A stretch of DNA of 44,559 nucleotides, taken from sequence record PP920553.1, one strand, 5' to 3'. Shown here in pieces: positions 1,991-43,187 of this stretch (positions are counted from its first letter, which is position 1; each line of letters starts with the position of its first letter). A model generated the notes under the pieces. The model was not told where the DNA came from. It saw only the letters and a program-made list of their open reading frames with translations, and made no database searches. This DNA comes from Escherichia phage SM_A8. The translations under genes and the position numbers were made by a program.

Positions 1991-3511
1991 ATGACCGTTA
2001 ACGTAGACAACCAGCACCCGCTCTATGCGCGCATCGCGCCAGAGTGGAAAATGATCCGTGACTGCGTAGCAGGGGAGCGCGCCGTGAAGGCGTGCGGCCC
2101 ATTATACCTGCCACACCCAGCAAGCGGCGACACCACCGACCCTAAATCGCGTGCGCGTTATAAGGCGTATAAGCAGCGCGCCGTCTTCCTGAACGCCACC
2201 GCCCGAACCCTTAACGCACTGTTAGGCGTGGCCTTCGCGAAGCCGGTGAGTATTGACCTTTCCGGGGCAATGGCTGACCTGATTGATGACGTAGACGGCA
2301 GCGGGATGCCACTGGCGCAACTCCTGCGCGGCGCTATGTCGGAAGTGCTGCAATCGGGCCGCGCTGGCTTTATGGTGGACTACGACCGCCAGGCGCATTT
2401 TGACGAACTGGGTAACGTAGTGCCGCAGACAGCCGCTGAAATGGCTGCACACCGCCCGCTTATCCGCCTGTATACGGCTGAGCAGATCATTAACTGGCGA
2501 CAGACCCACGGGGTCGACACGCTAATCGTGCTGAAGGAGACGGACGAAATCAGCACCGAAGATCCGGACGACTTCGCAAACCACGAAGTAACAATCTGGA
2601 CTGAGCTTCGCATGATTAACGGTGCGGCACACGCCCGCCGCTGGTATTACAACGCGGACACGTCCGAAGTGCAAATGGACTTGCCGCGTGGCTTCACCCG
2701 CACCGACCTTGTGCCGCTGGTGGATGCGGACGGTAATGCGCTTACGCAACTGCCATTTTGCTGGTGTGGTGCTGTGGACAACAACGCGACACCGGACGCC
2801 GCACCGCTGGCGGATATTGCGTCCATCAACATTAAGCACTACAACGCCGAAGCCGACGTCGCCGAGATTGCGCACATCGTGGGGCAACCTACCCTCGTTG
2901 CGACTGGTCTGACCCAATCATGGGCGGACAAGAACCTGAAAGGCGGCATCGCGCTTGGGGCAACTAAGGGCGTTATCCTGGGCCAGAACATGGACGCTAA
3001 ACTGATTCAGGCCGAGGAGCGCAACTTGTCTGTTGCGCTGTGTGAGCGACGCGAATTGCAAATGGCTAAACTGGGCGCGGCACTGGTTGAGAAGGGGACC
3101 GCACCTAAGACGGCAACCGAGGCGGCCTACGATGCGCAGACTGATAACAGTATCCTGTCGCTTATTGCCGGTAACGTTGAGAAGGCTTTCAACCGTGCGC
3201 TGCAAATCGTCCAGCTATTCACGGGCGACACCGCCGACCAGCGTGTGACGCTGAATAAGTTCTACACCGAAATCACGGTTGATGCGCAGCTTATGACCGC
3301 GATGATGTCGGGGGTGCAGACTGGCACGGTACGCCTGGCCGATTTCATCAAGTGGATGATGGCGCAGGGCGTCATCGACGACTCGCAAACCGTCGAGCAG
3401 GTGGAAGACGAATTGCGAAATCAGAATCCATTGCCTCAAATGTCCCCTGATGCGGTAGAATCTACCGAAGAAGACCCGGACAAGGTAGCGGACAATGGCG
3501 AAGACAATTAA
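1991..3511 (+). CDS. portal protein
   Basis: 506-aa ORF after TerL, RBS AAGGAAA upstream, acidic C-terminus; call by size and position. Confidence 0.7.
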   Translation: MTVNVDNQHPLYARIAPEWKMIRDCVAGERAVKACGPLYLPHPASGDTTDPKSRARYKAYKQRAVFLNATARTLNALLGVAFAKPVSIDLSGAMADLIDDVDGSGMPLAQLLRGAMSEVLQSGRAGFMVDYDRQAHFDELGNVVPQTAAEMAAHRPLIRLYTAEQIINWRQTHGVDTLIVLKETDEISTEDPDDFANHEVTIWTELRMINGAAHARRWYYNADTSEVQMDLPRGFTRTDLVPLVDADGNALTQLPFCWCGAVDNNATPDAAPLADIASINIKHYNAEADVAEIAHIVGQPTLVATGLTQSWADKNLKGGIALGATKGVILGQNMDAKLIQAEERNLSVALCERRELQMAKLGAALVEKGTAPKTATEAAYDAQTDNSILSLIAGNVEKAFNRALQIVQLFTGDTADQRVTLNKFYTEITVDAQLMTAMMSGVQTGTVRLADFIKWMMAQGVIDDSQTVEQVEDELRNQNPLPQMSPDAVESTEEDPDKVADNGEDN

Positions 3512-4598
3512 TCAACATTTGGCGGATCGCATGATCCGCCGTCACATCTTCACCCAGCGCCTGAGCAATGACCAGGCGCGGAGGGTGCTGGCTATGTGGG
3601 AGAAGTTCCGGCCTACATTACTGGGAAAGCTGACCGAGTTGCTTGATGGCAAATCGTCAATGAACAACAAGGCACTTACCACACTGTTAACGCAACTCGA
3701 CAAGACCGTCAAAACGGAACTGCGCACCGAGTTTAAGGCGTTGGCTGAAAGCCTTCAGGAGTTCGCCGACACCGAGGCTGATTATCTCGCCGACACATTA
3801 ACGGCAGCGATCCAGCCGGTAGTCGCCGTACCGGCGGTCGAGGTGGTTGGCGTAGTGACCGGCGCGCAGATCGCAGCAACGGCAATGAAAAACCCGTTCC
3901 AGGGCAATACCATGATGCAATGGCCTGACTCACTTTCTGAGTGGACCAGGACGCAGATCGGTAATCAGGTGCGGGCGGGATTCATCCAAGGCAAGCCAAC
4001 GATGGAAATTATCGCGGACGTGAGGCGCGCGCTAGGCGGTCGTAGTGCGCAAGCCATCTCAAGCGTTGTTAAGTCCGCAGTAAACCACTATGCGGCGACT
4101 GCCCGCGAACTAATGGTAAAAGCAAATGACGATATTCTCGAAGGTCGCCAATGGTTATCTACATTGGACACACATACTTCTCCCATGTGCCAGCTACGCG
4201 ATCGCCTGTTTTATCCGGTTGATGTTACTCCCGACACCAAAGGAAAGCGCGGCGGGAAAGTGGTGGCGGGGTCACAGTATGGCGCTGGCCCAGGCAAGCT
4301 GCATTATTGCTGCCGGTCGACGGAGACGTGGAAAGTCAAAGGCATGGAAGATTGGCCCAGTGGTAAGCGTCCGGCACTGAAGGCCGACGCGGGTCGATTG
4401 CTGAGTGAGCAGGTAGACGCGCAGACTGATTTCTTCTCATGGGTGCAGCGCCAGCCGCGCCATATCCTGGAAGAATTATATGGAGTGCAACGCGCCGACC
4501 AGATTATGCGCGGCATGAAAGTGCCGAAGATGTTCACCGATTCTGGCGAACTGATGACTATTGCACAGCTTAAAAACCGGGGGTTATGGCGTGATTAA
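3495..4598 (+). CDS. head morphogenesis protein (Mu F / SPP1 gp7-like)
   Basis: 367-aa ORF overlapping portal stop; position and composition typical of minor head morphogenesis proteins. Confidence 0.6.
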   Translation: MAKTINQHLADRMIRRHIFTQRLSNDQARRVLAMWEKFRPTLLGKLTELLDGKSSMNNKALTTLLTQLDKTVKTELRTEFKALAESLQEFADTEADYLADTLTAAIQPVVAVPAVEVVGVVTGAQIAATAMKNPFQGNTMMQWPDSLSEWTRTQIGNQVRAGFIQGKPTMEIIADVRRALGGRSAQAISSVVKSAVNHYAATARELMVKANDDILEGRQWLSTLDTHTSPMCQLRDRLFYPVDVTPDTKGKRGGKVVAGSQYGAGPGKLHYCCRSTETWKVKGMEDWPSGKRPALKADAGRLLSEQVDAQTDFFSWVQRQPRHILEELYGVQRADQIMRGMKVPKMFTDSGELMTIAQLKNRGLWRD

Positions 4599-4920
4599 AT
4601 ATGCAGCGATTGGACTGGTTATCGGTCTGGCGGTAGGATTCTGGCTAGGTGACTCCTATCGCGCTGGCGTAGTGGCGGAGGCGGCGCAAGAAGCGCAAGC
4701 CCAAGCCCAACGGCAGCAAACTAAAGTAATCGAGCGCTCCGTGCAGGCAGAACAAGCCCGCGACGTGGAATACCGGACTATCACAAAAGAGGTTGTTAAA
4801 TATGTTACGCGCCCTAACCGCCCTGATTGTAGTTTTGACGCTGAGCGCGTGCGGATCAAGCAGCGTGCCGTTGATGCCGCTAACGGAGTCGGCACTGCGA
4901 CCGCCGTGCAAGTTCGATAA
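4591..4920 (+). CDS. i-spanin (Rz-like)
   Basis: GTG start overlapping upstream stop; N-terminal TM segment IKYAAIGLVIGLAVGFW then charged Q/A/E-rich periplasmic region; contains an embedded +1 frame lipoprotein gene. Confidence 0.5.
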   Translation: MIKYAAIGLVIGLAVGFWLGDSYRAGVVAEAAQEAQAQAQRQQTKVIERSVQAEQARDVEYRTITKEVVKYVTRPNRPDCSFDAERVRIKQRAVDAANGVGTATAVQVR

Positions 4921-5032
4921 CCCGTCTGCGGACCCCGACGAAGATTTGATGATTGACGTGAAAAATATGGAATGCGGGGCGAAGCTGAGGGCGCAGGTGT
5001 TGGAGTTGCAGCAAATAATTAAGGGGCCGTAA
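4802..5032 (+). CDS. o-spanin (Rz1-like outer-membrane lipoprotein)
   Basis: RBS AAAGAGG 9 nt upstream; signal peptide with lipobox LSAC, proline-rich mature part; +1 frame overlap with Rz-like gene and extends past it. Confidence 0.55.
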   Translation: MLRALTALIVVLTLSACGSSSVPLMPLTESALRPPCKFDNPSADPDEDLMIDVKNMECGAKLRAQVLELQQIIKGP

Positions 5033-5044
5033 TGGCCCCTTTTC
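5022..5044. terminator. hairpin between convergent genes (bidirectional terminator candidate)
   Basis: AGGGGCC-gtaat-GGCCCCT followed by TTTT; sits between Rz1-like stop (5032) and leftward gene stop (5047). Confidence 0.5.
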
Positions 5045-5046
5045 CG

Positions 5047-5811
5047 TTAGCGAGGAATGCCGCAAATCTCGTTGAGTGTTTTCACATCCAGCGCCACCGC
5101 CGTGGATTTTGGCTTGTCCTGGTAAGGGATGAATTGCTCAACTTCGGGCCATGCCTTGATCAGCTTCTTATCGGTATTGTGTATATCCAGCACGCCGGTA
5201 ACAGTTAGTTTGAACGCGTCATACTTAGCCCGCAACTCACGGCGGGCCTTGTCGTTACGGTCCAGGCGCTTGCAGAAATCGTGGTCCGCAGGGTAGTCTA
5301 TGCGACCGCGCGGAAGATATATCGGCAGCGCTTTCCCGTCCTCGTCGACTTCGCACACTGACGCTAACAAAATTTCCTCATACCCTGGCACAATATCGCC
5401 GAGATCGGGAGACAGTTTATTCATGTATTTATACTCCCAGTATCCGCGATGTACTCGGAATCGGTGTCCGTCTCCGCTCAATGACACGGTACGGACGTTT
5501 CCGCCTGCGTTGATTTCGAAAGTGGCGTCGTAAACGCTGCCTATACCATATGGGTTGTCGGCGTCATGTCTATACGTCGCCTTATTGGTGTACACACAGA
5601 CGCCGTACATCTGCGACGGGTCATAGCCGATTGCTTCAATGCGCTCACGTAGCTCGGCGAACGAATGAATGCCTTCCGGCATACAGTCCAGCGTAATGGC
5701 GTACGCCAGATTTCGAGAGTCCATCATGATTGATTTGGCTTCAGTCGCGATTTCGTGGTCGCGCAGTATGTTAGCCAGAATCTGATTTTTAATGTCTTTC
5801 GTCAGTCTCAT
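5047..5811 (-). CDS. hypothetical protein (leftward insert in structural module)
   Basis: 254-aa ORF, ATG with GAGGA RBS; opposite strand to all flanking structural genes; no motif recognised. Confidence 0.6.
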   Translation of the reverse strand: MRLTKDIKNQILANILRDHEIATEAKSIMMDSRNLAYAITLDCMPEGIHSFAELRERIEAIGYDPSQMYGVCVYTNKATYRHDADNPYGIGSVYDATFEINAGGNVRTVSLSGDGHRFRVHRGYWEYKYMNKLSPDLGDIVPGYEEILLASVCEVDEDGKALPIYLPRGRIDYPADHDFCKRLDRNDKARRELRAKYDAFKLTVTGVLDIHNTDKKLIKAWPEVEQFIPYQDKPKSTAVALDVKTLNEICGIPR

Positions 5812-5851
5812 TTTTATGTCCTCATTTTAGGGGCTTTCGCCCCCGATTGGT

Positions 5852-6166
5852 TTAGTTGAATTTGATGTTGCCACCGGTGGAAGTTAAGCGGGCACATACA
5901 GCTTCAACGGCATCGACGCACATGAAATCGTTAAAGGCTTCGACCAGGGCGTTTATGAAAGATGCCGGAACCAGGCCGCAAGCCGGATTATCGAATGTTG
6001 CGGAGTTGATCGCCGCTTTTGCCGCTTCGGAAGCATTCATGCTCTGGCACAGATTCAGCGCTTCCGCGTTACGCATTGCGTGAAAGGTAAAGGTATTCGC
6101 TACGGTAGTTTTATTGAAACGGGCCATTGCGGCGTCTACTGGAGTTGCTACGGTCATGTTAGTCAT
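5852..6166 (-). CDS. hypothetical protein (leftward insert in structural module)
   Basis: ATG at 6166 with GAAGGAAA RBS (track ORF 5852..6226 starts at an upstream TTG); no motif recognised. Confidence 0.5.
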   Translation of the reverse strand: MTNMTVATPVDAAMARFNKTTVANTFTFHAMRNAEALNLCQSMNASEAAKAAINSATFDNPACGLVPASFINALVEAFNDFMCVDAVEAVCARLTSTGGNIKFN

Positions 6167-6201
6167 TTTGTTTTCCTTCATATCTCTGTTGGTGTGCAAC
6201 C

Positions 6202-6231
6202 AATATAATGCAACCAACATACGCAATGCAA
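6202..6231 (-). promoter_or_regulatory. sigma70-like promoter for leftward two-gene insert
   Basis: minus-sense TTGCAT-N18-TATATT; overlaps two GCAACCAA 8-mers; the 21 nt from the -10 onward are identical to the promoter at 39991-40011. Confidence 0.45.
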
Positions 6232-6238
6232 GCGAATT

Positions 6239-6266
6239 TTGCGATTATTTTTATCGCTGATAATAT
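6239..6266 (+). promoter_or_regulatory. sigma70-like promoter upstream of scaffold/capsid genes
   Basis: TTGCGA-N16-TAATAT about 55 nt upstream of scaffold start. Confidence 0.4.
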
Positions 6267-6320
6267 TAAGGCGTGAAGTCAAGCGGGTGGCCCGCTTTGC
6301 CACAATCCCAGGGGGATAGC

Positions 6321-7022
6321 ATGAAACTTACTAAAGCAGAATATGACGCGTTGCCAGAAGGTATGAAGGCGCTTTTTGTTGCCGATGGCGATGGGTATAA
6401 ATCAACCTTCATGACCGCAGAAGAAGTACAGGCGGAAATCAAGGGTCTGAAAGAAAACAACGCTAAGCTGGTGAGCGAGAAGAAAGCAGAAGCCGAACGC
6501 CGCGCCGAAGCTGAGCGCCTTGCGAAAGAGAAAGAGGAAGCCGCCGCGCGCAAAAATGGCGACCTCGAAGCGATCGACAAGTCCTGGAAAGATAAGTTTG
6601 CGAAACACGAAGCAGATACATCGGGAAAAATCGAAGCCTACCGCAAGCAGATCCACGATCTAACCATCGGCAGCGCTGCCAAAGACCTGGCGTCGAAGCT
6701 GTTCGGTAAGAATGCGGGAATCATGCAACGCCACGTAATGGACCGCCTGACGCTGGAAGACGGCGAAGACGGCAGCTTGAAAGTGCGTGTCTTGCAGGAT
6801 GGCAAACCGTCCGCGCTGACTATGGAAGAGCTTGAAAAAGAGTTCCGTAATAACGCCGATTTTGCATCAGTCCTGGCTGGCACGCCAGCCGGTGGCGCGC
6901 CTAGCAAACCGACGCAGGTTGTCGAAGATGTGAAGTCTAAAATTACGATGGGCCATAGCTTCGGTATCACCGATCTCACCAAACAGGCCGGTGAAATCAT
7001 CGCTAAAATGGGTGACGAGTAA
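6321..7022 (+). CDS. scaffolding protein
   Basis: ATG 6321 with GGGGGA RBS (track ORF 6273 has an N-terminal extension); K/E/A-rich coiled-coil-like sequence; immediately upstream of capsid gene. Confidence 0.6.
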   Translation: MKLTKAEYDALPEGMKALFVADGDGYKSTFMTAEEVQAEIKGLKENNAKLVSEKKAEAERRAEAERLAKEKEEAAARKNGDLEAIDKSWKDKFAKHEADTSGKIEAYRKQIHDLTIGSAAKDLASKLFGKNAGIMQRHVMDRLTLEDGEDGSLKVRVLQDGKPSALTMEELEKEFRNNADFASVLAGTPAGGAPSKPTQVVEDVKSKITMGHSFGITDLTKQAGEIIAKMGDE

Positions 7023-7119
7023 GCAGATTGCCCGCGAAAGCGGGCAATTTTGCGAGCGCGTAAAACTAAGGTAACATTAATGCCACTGGGCGAATGCTCA
7101 CAACTCAAAGGATTTCGAT

Positions 7120-8220
7120 ATGTCTTTAACAGTGTTCCAGCGTAAACTCGTTACCGCGGTTACGCAAATGATCCCCGACAACCTGAACGTTTTCAACGCC
7201 GCCGCCAATGGCGCTGTTGTTCTCGGTACTGGTGAAGTGCTGAAGGATGTTGTAGAAAAAATGTCCGTAGGCTTGATCGCCAACCTTGTTACCGACCGTA
7301 ACGCCTACGCCCCTGTCGGCACTCCGGCAACCGCTAAAGTGCTGGCGCGTATGCTGACCAACTCCGTTAACCTATCCGCGAAAGTGGGTCCGGTAGCAAT
7401 CACGAAGGCTATGATGGCTAAGATCGAAACCAACGTTAACAGCGTTGCGGCTGAGATTGCGGCGCAGGCCACTCAAGCGATTATGCTGCATTACCTGAAA
7501 GCGGGTATCGGCGCAAGTAAAGCGGCGATCGAAAGCAACGCAGCGGCAAAATACACCCAACCTGCGCGCGTTGATGGCGTTGGTGGTCGTACCTTCCCGA
7601 CCCTGGCGGACTTCCCGCTGGCGGCGTCTAAGTTCGGCGATCAGGCGTCTTTGATTAAGTCCTGGTTTATGGACGGTGTTACCTGGGCAAACTTCATCGC
7701 ATACCAGGCGCTCCCTTCCGCTGAACAGGTATTCGCAATTGGCGATCTTCAGGTAATGGGTGATGGCCTGGGCCGTCGTTTCATTATCTCCGATGCCGCT
7801 GCCGATGCTATGGGCACGGGTAACATGCTGGGTCTGGTCCCTGGCGCGGTTGCCGTTACCACCAACGGCCTCGATATGCTGGCGCAGGAGAAAGGCGGTA
7901 ACGAGAACATCGAACGCTGGTGGCAGGGCGAGTTCGACTTCAACGTGGCTGTTAAAGGCTACCGTCTGAAGGCGTCCGCTCGTACACCGATCGAAGGCGT
8001 CCGCTCGTTCAAACTGGACGATATTACCACTTCCGCTAACTGGGAACTGGATCAGGGCCAGGTAGACAACGAACCGGCAACCGTTCAGGATGTTGGCGCG
8101 GCGGGTGATGGCGATACTAAAGGTCGTCGTAAGACCCAGGCCGCACAGGCAGTGCCGACCCGTCACATCAAGGAAACCGCTGGCGTACTGGTTACGCTGA
8201 CGGCGACTACCGCGTCTTAA
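7120..8220 (+). CDS. major capsid protein
   Basis: 366-aa ORF after scaffold, RBS AAGGA, followed by a strong intrinsic terminator as is typical for capsid genes. Confidence 0.7.
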   Translation: MSLTVFQRKLVTAVTQMIPDNLNVFNAAANGAVVLGTGEVLKDVVEKMSVGLIANLVTDRNAYAPVGTPATAKVLARMLTNSVNLSAKVGPVAITKAMMAKIETNVNSVAAEIAAQATQAIMLHYLKAGIGASKAAIESNAAAKYTQPARVDGVGGRTFPTLADFPLAASKFGDQASLIKSWFMDGVTWANFIAYQALPSAEQVFAIGDLQVMGDGLGRRFIISDAAADAMGTGNMLGLVPGAVAVTTNGLDMLAQEKGGNENIERWWQGEFDFNVAVKGYRLKASARTPIEGVRSFKLDDITTSANWELDQGQVDNEPATVQDVGAAGDGDTKGRRKTQAAQAVPTRHIKETAGVLVTLTATTAS

Positions 8221-21999: not shown

Positions 22000-22020
22000 A
22001 GCCCCGAAAGGGGCTTATTT
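22000..22020. terminator. bidirectional terminator candidate
   Basis: AGCCCC-gaaa-GGGGCT then TATTTG; between convergent genes and overlapping the lipoprotein stop codon. Confidence 0.5.
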
Positions 22021-22236
22021 GCAGGTTGTGCTTTTGAAATGGTCTACAGACACGTACTGGAAGCTGAACGGATAGCCAGCCCTTAGCATTTTATGCCCGG
22101 AGAAGTCTGCAACACCATACACAGGGACCGCATAATCCATACCGCCAGTGTGGTATGTCGCCTCGCAGATCTTGCCAGGCATCGTGGAGCATCCTACCAG
22201 CACCGCAACTACACAGGCTAAAAGTAAAGTTTTCAT
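22015..22236 (-). CDS. small lipoprotein, putative receptor-blocking superinfection exclusion protein (Llp/Cor-like)
   Basis: 73 aa; signal peptide MKTLLLACVVAVLVGC with lipobox, two further Cys; RBS AGGGGA; own promoter; sits between host-specificity gene block and tail fiber on the opposite strand. Confidence 0.55.
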   Translation of the reverse strand: MKTLLLACVVAVLVGCSTMPGKICEATYHTGGMDYAVPVYGVADFSGHKMLRAGYPFSFQYVSVDHFKSTTCK

Positions 22237-22267
22237 GGTATCATCCCCTATATTTGGTTGAGTTTTA

Positions 22268-22295
22268 ATATTACACCACTCAACCAGGATTGCAA
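22268..22295 (-). promoter_or_regulatory. sigma70-like promoter for the lipoprotein gene
   Basis: minus-sense TTGCAA-N16-TAATAT; the -35 is part of an 8-mer copy (22292-22299). Confidence 0.4.
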
Positions 22296-22316
22296 CCAAT
22301 TTACGAGGATTTAGCT

Positions 22317-25243: not shown

Positions 25244-25273
25244 ACTATAGTGCAACCAACCTGTTGGTTGCAA
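25244..25273 (-). promoter_or_regulatory. sigma70-like promoter overlapped by 22-bp inverted repeat TGCAACCAA-cctg-TTGGTTGCA (operator candidate)
   Basis: minus-sense TTGCAA-N18-TATAGT; perfect 9-bp palindromic arms at 25251-25259 and 25264-25272. Confidence 0.45.
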
Positions 25274-26523: not shown

Positions 26524-26552
26524 AATATAATGCAACCAATATGATTATGCAA
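26524..26552 (-). promoter_or_regulatory. sigma70-like promoter upstream of Dam gene
   Basis: minus-sense TTGCAT-N17-TATATT built from two GCAACCAA copies (26532-26539, 26549-26556). Confidence 0.4.
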
Positions 26553-26557
26553 CCAAT

Positions 26558-36679: not shown

Positions 36680-36708
36680 AATATTAGATTGGTTGCAGAA
36701 GGGAGTCA
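36680..36708 (-). promoter_or_regulatory. leftward early promoter (P2)
   Basis: minus-sense TTGACT-N17-TAATAT with a GCAACCAA copy in the spacer; about 190 nt upstream of first leftward gene. Confidence 0.5.
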
Positions 36709-39812: not shown

Positions 39813-39967
39813 AATCCGGGGATTGCAAAATACACGGCAGCATGATGCTAAGTGCGGTCGTCGATGAACTAGGCAACCAATGCGGGTTGTATTATGCTGA
39901 GTGAAAAATGCGGTTTGCAGTTGCAGCAGATAGCGATCAACTTTTTCATGCGCGTGATTAATATTGG

Positions 39968-39996
39968 TTGCGTTCACCCCGGCACCATGCTATATT
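39968..39996 (+). promoter_or_regulatory. rightward early promoter
   Basis: TTGCGT-N17-TATATT; TTGGTTGC copies overlap the -35 and follow the -10; 21-mer TATATTGGTTGCACACCAACA matches the minus strand at 6187-6207. Confidence 0.5.
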
Positions 39997-40024
39997 GGTT
40001 GCACACCAACATGAGGACTGAACA

Positions 40025-40339: not shown

Positions 40340-40615
40340 ATGACCCGTAGGCGCGCAAAACAGCTTTCGTGGCATATTCCCCTGCATTGCATACGAATAT
40401 GGGCGGAGAATGCGGTTGAGGGTGAATCGGTATTCTGGTGCTATCGCGACGACGTAAAGCCGTTGACGCAGACTCGCTACTTGCACCAGTTCGCAGCGCA
40501 ACACGATTTCAGGGTGCGGACTTCCTTGCAACCAATGGGAATACGTATTACATTACGCCGGAAGCCCGCCGTTGAGCGGGTAGGCAAACACTGGAGACTG
40601 AGCAAATGTTCTTAG
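40340..40615 (+). CDS. hypothetical early protein
   Basis: 91-aa ORF. Confidence 0.45.
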   Translation: MTRRRAKQLSWHIPLHCIRIWAENAVEGESVFWCYRDDVKPLTQTRYLHQFAAQHDFRVRTSLQPMGIRITLRRKPAVERVGKHWRLSKCS

Positions 40616-43123: not shown

Positions 43124-43187
43124 ATTGCTTGACTCGCAACCAACACAGGGGCCATACTGCAACCAATCAACTGGAGGAGTAATCAAG

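What the first reader, a model, noticed from the sequence alone, without database searches (positions are those of the whole stretch)
5022..6231. Two-gene leftward insert inside the head morphogenesis module
Genes at 5047-5811 (254 aa) and 5852-6166 (104 aa) are on the opposite strand to all flanking structural genes. They have their own promoter (6202-6231) sharing the early-promoter core, are separated by a stem-loop (5829-5846), and end at a bidirectional terminator. Neither product shows a motif I recognise. The arrangement is typical of an accessory moron (defence, anti-defence or host takeover), and is the best candidate in this window for an undescribed two-component cassette.
Basis: inference. 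Interest (0 to 1): 0.6.

Follow-up and report, generated by a model that had tools for sequence, protein, structure and literature searches.

The report
Early nmad5 gene plus swappable moron
The two backward-facing genes are real but are not a two-part system: one is nmad5, a published, widespread phage early gene of unknown biochemistry, and the other is one of several small genes that related phages swap in and out of the slot in front of it.

Summary
The window is a Dhillonvirus (E. coli siphophage, 96% identical to JLBYU60). The described anatomy is real: a leftward unit with a sigma-70 promoter (6202-6231), a 104-aa ORF (5852-6166), a GC hairpin, a 254-aa ORF (5047-5811) and a convergent terminator hairpin (5021-5041).

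The 254-aa protein is a full-length Pfam Nmad5 member (E 3e-55). It is present in about 149 of 158 related records and naturally lost in HK578 and JL1. It is already published as the Dhillonvirus gene where K216E lets phage escape Tmn defence.

The 104-aa gene is a separate orphan moron. It occupies a polymorphic slot between the promoter and nmad5, which is empty or holds 53-, 104-, 135- or 170-aa cargo. It occurs elsewhere without nmad5, so there is no two-component cassette.

I found no support for Nmad5 being a base-modifying enzyme here. It has no known fold and no invariant Asp/His/Cys/Lys/Ser. The window has no detectable homologues of the M6 thymidine-modification enzymes. In 22 of 35 other phage loci it sits beside exonuclease/annealase genes.

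Most likely it is a non-catalytic early binding protein of DNA metabolism, and its conserved C-terminal patch is what Tmn reads. Interest is modest.

The parts
5021..5041 (.). Convergent terminator hairpin shared by Rz1 (rightward) and nmad5 (leftward)
   Evidence: 8-bp stem with 6 GC pairs. Energy is -17.1 kcal/mol (minus strand) and -18.2 kcal/mol (plus strand), z about -3.3. HK578 annotates terminators at the same place.
5047..5811 (-). nmad5, 254 aa, Pfam PF18757 / phrog_1965
5143..5175 (-). Codons 213-223 (T-D-K-K-L-I-K-A-W-P-E): the most conserved Nmad5 patch, containing K216 (codon 5164-5166)
   Evidence: T213, L217, W221, P222 and E223 are 82-100% conserved in 28 non-redundant family members; K216 is K in 68%. 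K216E is the Tmn-escape substitution in PhiSMA8 (PMC11846954).
5050..5100 (-). Codons 238-254: C-terminal peptide A-V-A-L-D-V-K-T-L-N-E-I-C-G-I-P-R, following a low-confidence linker
   Evidence: L246 and N247 are invariant, G251 96%, P253 89%. pLDDT is below 50 for residues 232-241 and 250-254. This is the only part that tblastn detects in distant phages.
5818..5823 (-). Shine-Dalgarno sequence (GAGGAC) of nmad5
   Evidence: Read directly from the sequence. The same AACGAGGACACAAAAATG junction is present in phages with an empty slot.
5829..5844 (-). GC hairpin GGGGGCGAAAGCCCCU: the 3' boundary of the cargo slot, not a canonical terminator
   Evidence: -12.4 kcal/mol with no U-tract. It is shared by the 104-, 135- and 170-aa cargos and absent from empty slots. 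Similar hairpins follow homologues of the small gene in L007 and L008.
5852..6166 (-). 104-aa orphan ORF (phrog_24635): the facultative moron cargo
   Evidence: No Pfam, PADLOC, NCBIfam or PDB match. Only 4 clusters at 50% identity among 1.84 billion proteins. dN/dS 0.07-0.11. Present in about 60 Dhillonvirus records out of about 149 that carry nmad5.
6167..6201 (-). Leader with the Shine-Dalgarno sequence (AAGGAA, 6174-6179): the 5' boundary of the cargo slot
   Evidence: The same leader CACCAACAGAGATATGAAGGAAAACAAAATG precedes the unrelated 135-aa cargo.
6195..6231 (-). Sigma-70-type promoter: -35 TTGCAT (6226-6231), -10 TATATT (6202-6207), with TTGGTTGCA repeats at 6209-6217 and 6195-6203
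   Evidence: Conserved in all Dhillonvirus relatives aligned, including Ioannina, whose Nmad5 is 62% identical. Motif enrichment. The block TATATTGGTTGCACACCAAC is shared with the promoter at 39964-40010.
4561..5032 (+). Context: Rz / Rz1 spanin genes (Rz1 4803-5032 overlaps Rz, one frame over), the left neighbours
   Evidence: phrog_2536 at E 2.6e-36 and phrog_5672 at E 2.7e-26. BASEL annotates them as i-spanin and o-spanin.
6322..7022 (+). Context: head scaffolding gene, the right neighbour
   Evidence: phrog_206 at E 9e-51; annotations.

Best explanation
The region is one leftward, host-RNA-polymerase (sigma-70) early-type transcription unit. It sits in a non-structural gap of the head module, between the spanin genes and the scaffold gene. 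It holds two unrelated and independently dispensable genes.

(1) nmad5 is the resident gene of the locus in almost all Dhillonviruses. Sequence and published data show that it belongs to the Nmad5 family, is non-essential, is toxic when cloned, and is the site of the K216E Tmn-escape substitution.

I infer that it is not a base-modifying enzyme in this phage. I think it is a non-catalytic early protein: a helical bundle plus a small beta sheet, then a flexible linker and a conserved C-terminal peptide. It would work by binding a conserved partner in DNA replication, recombination or repair. The patch T213-K216-L217-W221-P222-E223 would be the surface that Tmn's sensor arms read. Because deleting nmad5 does not give escape, K216E is best read as a gain of function. 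One possibility is binding to Tmn that no longer activates it, as reported for T2 RIIB-D219S.

(2) The 104-aa ORF is an orphan moron. It is inserted between the promoter and nmad5, bounded by a conserved leader and a GC hairpin and flanked by a CCAAC repeat. It is one of at least five alternative states of that slot. Related phages probably exchange these by recombination through the shared boundaries. Its own function is unknown. My best guess is a small early binder of a host or defence protein, possibly metal-stabilised through invariant H29, C63, C83 and C91.

Approximate confidence for each step:
- architecture and independence of the two genes: 0.9
- Nmad5 is non-enzymatic here: 0.6
- Nmad5 acts in replication or recombination: 0.35
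- the decoy reading of K216E: 0.3
For: Identity and distribution:
- The window is 93-96% identical to Dhillonviruses over the region.
- Pfam Nmad5 at E 2.8e-55, full length.
- Nmad5 is at 60% identity or more in about 149 phage records; the small gene is in about 60 of them.

Independence of the two genes:
- GeorgBuechner (Nmad5 96.8% identical) and Ioannina have the promoter directly in front of nmad5.
- L005 has nmad5 next to the scaffold gene without the small gene.
- HK578 keeps a cargo gene but has no nmad5; JL1 has a truncated nmad5.
- Homologues of the small gene sit without nmad5 in Dibbivirus, Ackermannviridae and two metagenomic phages. One of these has its own TTGACA-N17-TATAAT promoter and a following hairpin.

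Slot alleles and shared boundaries.

Against an enzymatic role:
- Foldseek against viral models finds only other Nmad5 proteins.
- The residues conserved family-wide are R2, L3, N14, G104, G113, P167, L208, T213, L217, W221, P222, E223, P229, A240, L246, N247, G251 and P253. No Asp, His, Cys, Lys or Ser is invariant.
- No M6 hypermodification enzyme has a counterpart in the window (E above 0.1), whereas M6 Nmad5 hits at E 2e-11.
- The annotated close relative has only Dam and Dcm methyltransferases.
- The BASEL study describes Dhillonviruses as less restriction-resistant than the modified Nonagvirus and Seuratvirus phages.

Context elsewhere:
- Of 35 non-Dhillonvirus loci, 22 carry a RecT or Enc34 ssDNA-binding gene and/or a YqaJ or DUF2800 exonuclease on the same strand within 8 ORFs. 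Only 2 carry a 5-hmdU kinase.
- In HK542 the homologue directly follows N in the PL operon.

Link to Tmn: PMC11846954; separable binding and activation of Tmn by RIIB, PMC13001434.

Early-type promoter.
Against: - No experiment or computation here identifies a binding partner, and no complex prediction could be run.
- The absence of a known fold or catalytic constellation does not exclude a new enzyme. The family does sit inside genuine thymidine-hypermodification clusters in M6/Yua-type phages.
- The gene-neighbourhood counts come from phylogenetically related loci and a crude ORF caller, so they are not independent observations.
- Early expression is inferred from promoter sequence only; no transcript data were available.
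- The K216E decoy model rests on analogy with a different Tmn variant and a different phage protein. Nmad5 shows no similarity to RIIB.
- The metal-site idea for the small protein rests only on four invariant residues. Only one of the five AF2 models of that protein was confident.
Confidence: 0.7

Rival explanations
1. Nmad5 is what its name says: an enzyme or enzyme subunit that modifies bases in the phage DNA. Tmn would sense that modification, which is the reading offered by Yamashita et al.
For: The Pfam and PGAP names. In M6/SN1-type Pseudomonas phages the gene lies among 5-hmdU kinase, aGPT-Pplase, radical-SAM and PLP genes. The authors assume this in PMC11846954.
Against: - The window has no homologue of any M6 pathway enzyme.
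- No enzyme fold was found and no invariant Asp, His, Cys, Lys or Ser.
- Most family contexts are recombination or early-left operons of phages with ordinary DNA, including lambdoid prophages in at least 211 of 5426 complete E. coli genomes.
- Deleting nmad5 does not relieve Tmn sensitivity. That is hard to reconcile with Tmn sensing an Nmad5-made mark.
- The BASEL study describes Dhillonviruses as less restriction-resistant than phages with modified DNA.
Confidence: 0.1
2. Nmad5 is an anti-defence or host-takeover inhibitor, for example of a host nuclease or repair enzyme, rather than a helper of phage DNA metabolism. The small ORF would be a second, independent counter-defence gene.
For: - It is early, non-essential and toxic when cloned.
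- In lambdoid phages it occupies the N-proximal PL region. From general knowledge, lambda and P22 keep ral, kil, gam and abc2 there; Abc2 lies nearby in HK542.
- A point mutation changes the outcome against a defence system.
- The slot in front of it holds fast-changing cargo, as counter-defence hot-spots do.
Against: - No match to known anti-defence proteins was available to test; PADLOC covers defence proteins only.
- The wild-type protein does not protect against Tmn.
- The phage already carries a Gam-like gene elsewhere.
- PhiSMA2 carries the 104-aa gene (H78) yet is Tmn-sensitive.
Confidence: 0.25
3. One reading: the two genes form one undescribed two-component cassette whose products act together.
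For: In this window they are adjacent, co-oriented and probably co-transcribed from one promoter.
Against: - Each gene occurs without the other many times.
- The nearest Nmad5 allele (96.8% identical) lacks the small gene.
- The same slot carries unrelated cargos.
- The ORFs upstream of distant Nmad5 genes are unrelated to the small protein.
Confidence: 0.04
4. Because of their position, the genes have a head-assembly or virion role.
For: Their location between the portal/minor-capsid genes and the scaffold/major-capsid genes.
Against: - Opposite strand and an early-type promoter.
- Natural and engineered deletions are viable.
- In other phages Nmad5 lies in replication or recombination operons.
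- No protein of 254 or 104 aa is among the 24 phage proteins detected in a Dhillonvirus lysate.
Confidence: 0.03

Closest known systems
Nmad5 family (Pfam PF18757, 'nucleotide modification associated domain 5'; to my recollection named computationally by Iyer, Aravind and colleagues in 2013; PGAP name 'Nmad5 family putative nucleotide modification protein')
   Same: Full-length, high-scoring match. It shares the family's N-terminal RL(T/N) motif, the central GG, the T..KL...WPE patch and the C-terminal LN..(C/L/I)G(L/I)P peptide.
   Different: It carries a roughly 50-residue central insertion (about 114-165) that is absent from the 230-aa C130_2-type members. It sits in the head module rather than a replication, recombination or modification cluster. 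No modification enzymes accompany it.
Dhillonvirus nmad5 of PhiSMA8 / PhiSMS22 (Yamashita et al. 2025, Commun Biol, PMC11846954)
   Same: Same genus, same locus 'near the capsid gene', and the same 254-aa form with K at position 216. I take it to be the same gene.
   Different: That paper treats it as a DNA-modification enzyme and a Tmn trigger. My analysis finds no support for enzymatic modification. It also places K216 inside the family's most conserved surface motif.
Morons of lambdoid and other tailed phages (the Hendrix/Juhala concept, from general knowledge): extra genes with their own transcription signals inserted between conserved genes
   Same: The 104-aa gene is present or absent among near-identical genomes. 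It is flanked by short repeats, followed by a hairpin, and found in unrelated phages. In L007 it has its own consensus promoter.
   Different: In Dhillonvirus it borrows the resident nmad5 promoter. Its hairpin lacks a U-tract, so it does not insulate the downstream gene. The phage is virulent, so there is no lysogenic-conversion role.
T2 RIIB as the direct trigger of Tmn (PMC13001434)
   Same: Both are early phage proteins in which a single surface substitution abolishes Tmn-mediated defence.
   Different: There is no sequence relationship (hhalign probability 0.4%). Nonsense mutations in RIIB give escape, whereas deleting nmad5 does not. A different Tmn allele was used.
Thymidine-hypermodification clusters of Pseudomonas phages M6 / Yua / SN1
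   Same: They contain an Nmad5 homologue, 38% identical over the C-terminal 82 residues.
   Different: Their 5-hmdU kinase, aGPT-Pplase, radical-SAM, PLP enzyme and hydroxymethylase have no detectable counterpart in this window.

Membership tests
Nmad5 (PF18757) | Full-length match to the family HMM above the gathering score | tested here: met
   188 bits against a cut-off of 27, residues 1-253 on profile positions 1-206 of 206. Also phrog_1965 at E 2.6e-59.
Nmad5 (PF18757) | Family-wide conserved residues (R2, L3, G104, T213, L217, W221, P222, L246, N247, G251, P253) | tested here: met
   All are present in the window protein. Conservation was measured over 28 non-redundant members.
Nmad5 (PF18757) | Genomic association with enzymes that make modified DNA bases (the basis of the family's name) | tested here: not met
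   tblastn of the M6 cluster proteins against the window finds only Nmad5. The annotation of the 96%-identical JLBYU60 lists no such enzymes. Only 2 of 35 other loci had a 5-hmdU kinase nearby.
Nmad5 (PF18757) | Biochemical activity on nucleotides or DNA | not testable with these tools
   I found no report of a demonstrated activity in the papers searched. There is no fold relative in the PDB.
Moron (accessory gene inserted in a conserved module) | Present in some and absent from other closely related genomes at the same site | tested here: met
   The slot is empty, or filled with 53-, 104-, 135- or 170-aa ORFs.
Moron (accessory gene inserted in a conserved module) | Own promoter and terminator | tested here: inconclusive
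   In this window the small gene uses the resident nmad5 promoter, and its hairpin has no U-tract. A homologue in L007 has TTGACA-N17-TATAAT and a following hairpin.
Moron (accessory gene inserted in a conserved module) | Horizontal spread to unrelated phages | tested here: met
   Homologues at 57-73% identity in Dibbivirus, Ackermannviridae and two metagenomic phages.
Two-gene functional system (toxin-antitoxin, defence or anti-defence pair) | Conserved co-occurrence and adjacency of the two genes across lineages | tested here: not met
   Each gene is found without the other. No PADLOC hit for either.
Determinant of Tmn sensitivity (Dhillonvirus nmad5, K216) | Lysine at the position equivalent to PhiSMA8 K216 | tested here: met
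   Codon AAG at 5164-5166 on the minus strand; residues 215-217 are K-K-L.
Determinant of Tmn sensitivity (Dhillonvirus nmad5, K216) | K216E confers escape from Tmn in this particular phage | not testable with these tools
   This needs phage genetics. It is published only for PhiSMA8 and PhiSMS22.
Virion structural or assembly protein | Detected in virions or essential for assembly | tested here: not met
   Literature only. No protein of 254 or 104 aa is among the 24 phage proteins detected in an EE09 lysate. Deletion is viable. HK578 lacks nmad5.

The most novel reading that the evidence does not exclude
Nmad5 is mis-named. It would be a widespread non-enzymatic early phage protein, found in lytic siphophages, lambdoid and Stx prophages, and Pseudomonas and Vibrio phages. 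Its conserved T..KL...WPE patch and C-terminal LN..CG(L/I)P peptide would dock onto a conserved bacterial replication or repair hub. That same surface would be a molecular pattern read by Tmn-type immune sensors. The site in front of it in Dhillonvirus would be a dedicated exchange slot, with a shared leader and hairpin as boundaries, through which co-infecting phages trade small early genes.
Probability: 0.2. Interest if true: 0.6.

Novelty: new member of a known kind. Interest (0 to 1): 0.35.

Why it matters
- Annotation. Nmad5 is carried by many coliphages and prophages. One lambdoid allele alone is in 211 of 5426 complete E. coli genomes, and homologues turn up in Stx-converting phages. 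It is routinely labelled a nucleotide-modification protein without biochemical evidence. Showing that it usually travels with recombination genes, and lacks enzyme hallmarks, redirects how it should be tested and annotated.
- Tmn immunity. It is one of very few phage determinants linked to Tmn, so knowing which surface matters helps explain how that sensor reads infection.
- Phage engineering. The polymorphic slot offers a natural, tolerated insertion site with a defined promoter and boundaries in a therapeutically used genus.
- The orphan gene. The 104-aa gene is a clean candidate for screens of small early phage proteins.

Tried and rejected
- Sequence searches against the PDB found nothing significant for either protein.
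- PADLOC and NCBIfam gave no hits.
- Is the small gene the published anti-Tmn? No. Anti-Tmn is ORF35, elsewhere in the genome. PhiSMA2 carries the small gene and is still Tmn-sensitive.
- Is there a conserved 'DnaN-like plus Nmad5' pair? The 170-aa DnaN-like slot cargo of EP23 is unrelated to the ORF upstream of Nmad5 in C130_2-like phages. Rejected.
- Is the ORF upstream of the 42%-identical Nmad5 in L009 a diverged small gene? There is no similarity; it belongs to phrog_2510.
- Is Nmad5 related to RIIB, the other Tmn trigger? hhalign probability is 0.4%. Rejected.
- A structured RNA in the region? No Rfam match in 4900-6400.
- Scan of bacterial genome contigs: the first pattern was too specific and confirmed nothing.
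- Base composition shows only a slight GC dip and the expected sign change in AT skew, so it gives no strong signal of foreign origin.
- I considered a beta-clamp-binding motif for the C-terminal peptide. It does not fit the QL[SD]LF / QLxLxL consensus that I recall, so I do not claim it.
Full report
**What the window is.** A megablast of 4500-7200 against phage genomes finds 158 records, nearly all Escherichia Dhillonvirus. 134 of them cover at least 80% of the query at 80-96% identity; JLBYU60 is best at 96%. The annotations of JLBYU60, Zumzum and the BASEL phage GeorgBuechner, together with PHROG scans, give the local gene order:
- terminase, portal, and the minor-capsid / 'head morphogenesis' gene (3495-4598)
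- Rz and Rz1 spanins (4561-4920 and 4803-5032)
- the two leftward ORFs
- scaffold (6322-7022) and major capsid protein (7120-8220)

**Checking the observation.**
- The 104-aa start at 6166 has an AAGGA ribosome-binding site. It matches the conserved N-terminus M-x-x-M-T-V-x-T-P-V-D of all homologues.
- Both genes evolve under purifying selection: dN/dS is 0.09-0.14 for the large gene and 0.07-0.11 for the small one.
- The promoter is TTGCAT-N18-TATATT at 6202-6231 on the minus strand. That pattern occurs twice in the window against 0.02 expected by chance.
- The promoter contains two copies of TTGGTTGCA. This 9-mer occurs 11 times exactly against 0.45 expected, mostly in promoter-like intergenic sites.
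- The block TATATTGGTTGCACACCAAC is shared with the promoter-like site at 39964-40010. The arrangement TTGGTTGCAT...TTGGTTGCATTATATT recurs at 26524-26556. The claim that the promoter shares a core with the phage's other promoters is therefore supported at the sequence level. Timing of expression has not been measured.
- The hairpin between the genes (5829-5844) folds at -12.4 kcal/mol and has no U-tract.
- The hairpin at 5021-5041 folds at -17 to -18 kcal/mol on either strand and lies between the convergent Rz1 and nmad5 stop codons.

**The large gene is nmad5.** The 254-aa protein matches Pfam PF18757 (Nmad5) over its whole length at E 2.8e-55, and phrog_1965. A literature search for Nmad5 leads directly to Yamashita et al. 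2025 (PMC11846954), who report the following for Dhillonvirus phages PhiSMA8 and PhiSMS22:
- The nmad5 gene 'near the capsid gene' acquires K216E (254-aa form) or K296E (longer annotation) in mutants that escape the Tmn defence system.
- Reverting the mutation restores sensitivity.
- Deleting nmad5 gives viable phage that is still Tmn-sensitive.
- The gene could not be cloned because of toxicity.

The window protein has K215-K216-L217, with codon AAG at 5164-5166. The larger half of the finding is therefore an already described gene, although its biochemical function remains unknown.

**The two genes are not a unit.**
- tblastn finds the Nmad5 protein at 60% identity or more in about 149 phage records. 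The 104-aa protein is in only about 60 Dhillonvirus records.
- GeorgBuechner has the closest Nmad5 (96.8% identical) and no small gene. The same is true of Ioannina (62%) and a metagenomic relative (L005, 63%).
- An alignment of the upstream regions shows the same promoter block in all of them. In GeorgBuechner and Ioannina it directly precedes nmad5. In EK99P-1 a 53-aa ORF intervenes, and in the window the 104-aa ORF plus hairpin.
- Across twelve Dhillonvirus-like loci the distance from the scaffold start to the nmad5 start takes discrete values:
  - 149-150 bp: empty slot
  - 326 bp: 53-aa ORF
  - 509-510 bp: the 104-aa ORF
  - 605-608 bp: an unrelated 135-aa ORF
  - 743 bp: a 170-aa DnaN-like ORF, as in Shigella phage EP23
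  - 485 bp, in a distant relative: a phrog_2510 ORF
- The 104- and 135-aa cargos share an identical leader, CACCAACAGAGATATGAAGGAAAACAAAATG.
- The three larger cargos share the 3' end AACTAAACCAA-CGGGGCGAAAGCCCC-AACAACGAGGACACAAAAATG.
- The empty site reads CACCAAC|AACGAGGAC, so the insert is flanked by a CCAAC repeat.
- The EP23-type slot still carries the last codons (…GGGIKFN) of the 104-aa gene.
- Conversely, HK578, the type species, has only the 135-aa cargo and no nmad5. JL1 has the 104-aa gene plus a 74-codon remnant of nmad5.
- Outside the genus, homologues of the small protein (57-73% identical) sit in unrelated early regions without Nmad5. These are in Pantoea phage AAM37, Ackermannviridae and two metagenomic phages. 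One has its own perfect TTGACA-N17-TATAAT promoter, and all three sequences that I read are followed by a GC hairpin.
- The ORF in front of a 42%-identical Nmad5 (L009) is unrelated to the small protein.

So the small gene is a classic moron sitting in a polymorphic slot. Nmad5 is the near-universal but dispensable resident of the locus.

**What Nmad5 is likely to be.** The name rests on guilt by association with base-modification genes. That association is real in M6/Yua/SN1-type Pseudomonas phages. There the homologue lies among a 5-hmdU kinase, aGPT-Pplases, a radical-SAM enzyme, a PLP enzyme and a hydroxymethylase. It does not hold here or in most other contexts.
- None of the M6 pathway proteins has a counterpart in the window (all E above 0.1), while M6 Nmad5 hits at E 2e-11.
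- The near-identical JLBYU60 encodes only Dam and Dcm methylases as modification functions.
- The BASEL study describes Dhillonviruses as less restriction-resistant than the 7-deazaguanine-modified Nonagvirus and Seuratvirus phages.

I scanned IMG/VR with the family alignment (50 loci), clustered the neighbouring ORFs and annotated cluster representatives.
- Of 35 non-Dhillonvirus loci, 22 have a RecT or Enc34-type ssDNA-binding gene and/or a YqaJ or DUF2800 exonuclease on the same strand within eight ORFs.
- 18 are lambdoid early-left operons with the order CI, small ORFs, Nmad5, DUF1482, phrog_1376, RecT, YqaJ.
- Six are C130_2-like, with the order Nmad5, phrog_4965, DUF2800 exonuclease, Enc34 ssDNA-binding protein, PolA. 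L004 shows the same arrangement.
- Only two have the 5-hmdU kinase.
- In HK542 the homologue immediately follows N in the PL operon, ahead of cIII, Erf and Abc2. This allele alone is in 211 of 5426 complete E. coli genomes.
- These loci are related to one another and my ORF calling was crude, so the counts show a tendency, not a statistic.

**Structure and conservation.**
- The AF2 model (pLDDT 80, pTM 0.77) has an N-terminal helical hairpin, a small beta sheet and a long helix (178-210) followed by short helices. A low-confidence linker (232-241) and a short C-terminal helix come last.
- Across 28 non-redundant family members, no Asp, His, Cys, Lys or Ser is invariant. The conserved positions are:
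  - R2, L3 and N14
  - G104, G113, P167 and L208
  - T213, L217, W221, P222, E223 and P229
  - A240, L246, N247, G251 and P253
- Conservation is therefore concentrated in the extreme N-terminus, the T..KL...WPE patch and the terminal LN..(C/L/I)G(L/I)P peptide. The last 80 residues are the only part that tblastn detects in distant phages.
- This pattern fits a binding protein with a tethered peptide motif better than an enzyme.
- K216, the Tmn-escape position, lies inside the conserved patch and is K in 68% of members.
- The model shows isolated beta-bridge residues at positions 2 and 213. This suggests that the conserved N-terminus packs against the patch; that is my inference.

**Link to Tmn.** A 2026 preprint (PMC13001434) reports that another Tmn allele binds the early T2 protein RIIB through its cytosolic arms. 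It also reports that RIIB-D219S still binds but no longer activates. Nmad5 and RIIB are unrelated in sequence. Because deleting nmad5 does not give escape while K216E does, K216E behaves as a gain of function. My inferred reading is that Nmad5 is one of the proteins Tmn's arms contact. K216E would then turn a productive contact into a non-productive, competing one. The small gene is not the published anti-Tmn, which is ORF35 elsewhere in the genome. PhiSMA2 carries the small gene and is still Tmn-sensitive.

**The small protein.**
- It has no Pfam, NCBIfam, PADLOC or PDB match.
- A full HMMER scan of 1.84 billion representative proteins finds only four clusters.
- Invariant residues include H29, C63, C83 and C91, and the loop F-D-N-P-A-C-G-L-V-P. 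A structural metal site is possible but untested.
- Its function is unknown. Position, promoter and mobility suggest an early accessory protein that binds a host or defence factor.

**Virion role.** Lysate proteomics of Dhillonvirus EE09 detected 24 phage proteins, none of 254 or 104 aa (PMC10673088). Together with the viable natural and engineered deletions, this argues against a structural role.

**Verdict.** It is not supported in its main point of an undescribed two-component cassette. The main gene belongs to a known, already studied family. What this analysis adds is threefold: the polymorphic cargo slot with conserved boundaries; evidence that Nmad5 is probably not a modification enzyme and mostly travels with recombination genes; and the placement of the Tmn-escape residue in the family's conserved patch. 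Interest is modest (0.35).

Noticed in passing
window 4561-5032: The Rz/Rz1 spanin pair sits in the head module, about 37 kb from the holin and endolysin genes (around 42.3-43.3 kb by homology with JLBYU60). Rz1 overlaps Rz, one frame over, and has a lipobox (LTLSAC). The lysis cassette is therefore split.
   Followed up: partly
window 6195-6217, 22291-22299, 25251-25272, 26531-26556, 36689-36697, 39995-40003, 40527-40535, 43158-43166: TTGGTTGCA occurs 11 times exactly (0.45 expected). It acts as an extended -35 element and/or follows the -10 element in promoter-like sites, and it forms a palindromic pair at 25251-25272. It could be a binding site for a phage regulator rather than only part of the promoters.
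   Followed up: partly
window 22015-22299 (minus strand): There is a second leftward single-gene insert among the rightward tail genes. It is a small lipoprotein-like ORF (MKTLLLACVVAVLVGCS...), annotated in JLBYU60 as a superinfection-exclusion protein. It is preceded by TTGGTTGCA-N17-TAATAT, the same promoter type as the nmad5 unit.
   Followed up: partly
window 6232-6321: The spacer between the nmad5 promoter and the scaffold start holds a possible divergent rightward promoter (TTGCGA-N16-TAATAT). It also holds a small inverted repeat (GCGAT-N7-ATCGC) and a hairpin (AAGCGGGTGGCCCGCTT, about 6281-6297) in the presumed scaffold leader. All are conserved in GeorgBuechner and EK99P-1.
   Followed up: no
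L019 (IMG/VR copy of Shigella phage EP23), 5359-5919: The slot cargo here is a 170-aa protein with the beta-clamp signature (weak PF02767 hit; phrog_3007 / phrog_947). This family has 287 tblastn hits in phages and is variously annotated as 'DNA polymerase III beta subunit' or 'RusA-like resolvase'. The remnant 3' end of the 104-aa gene lies behind it.
   Followed up: partly
L067 (HK578) 1593-2101; L068 (JL1) 1632-2225: The type species HK578 lacks nmad5 altogether, and JL1 keeps only a 74-codon stub. These are natural knock-outs that could be compared phenotypically with their relatives.
   Followed up: partly
L007 1344-3287 and 5930-6330: This metagenomic phage carries a homologue of the small gene behind a perfect consensus promoter. 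It also encodes an adenylosuccinate-synthetase-like protein and an HD phosphohydrolase next to PolA and a methyltransferase. That combination is reminiscent of 2-aminoadenine (Z-base) genome phages.
   Followed up: no
lambdoid loci L033-L056, ORFs +1 to +3 after Nmad5: In 18 loci, Nmad5 and RecT are separated by a conserved ~323-aa protein of unknown function (phrog_1376, no Pfam match). A DUF1482 protein is often there too. Either could be a functional partner of Nmad5 in temperate phages.
   Followed up: no
proteins P0041 (299 aa) and P0036-P0038 (225-227 aa); PhiSMS22 nmad5 as described in PMC11846954: Longer and shorter Nmad5 forms exist, such as the 80-residue N-terminal extension that gives K296 instead of K216. 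These may reflect in-frame fusion with slot sequence or differences in annotation.
   Followed up: no
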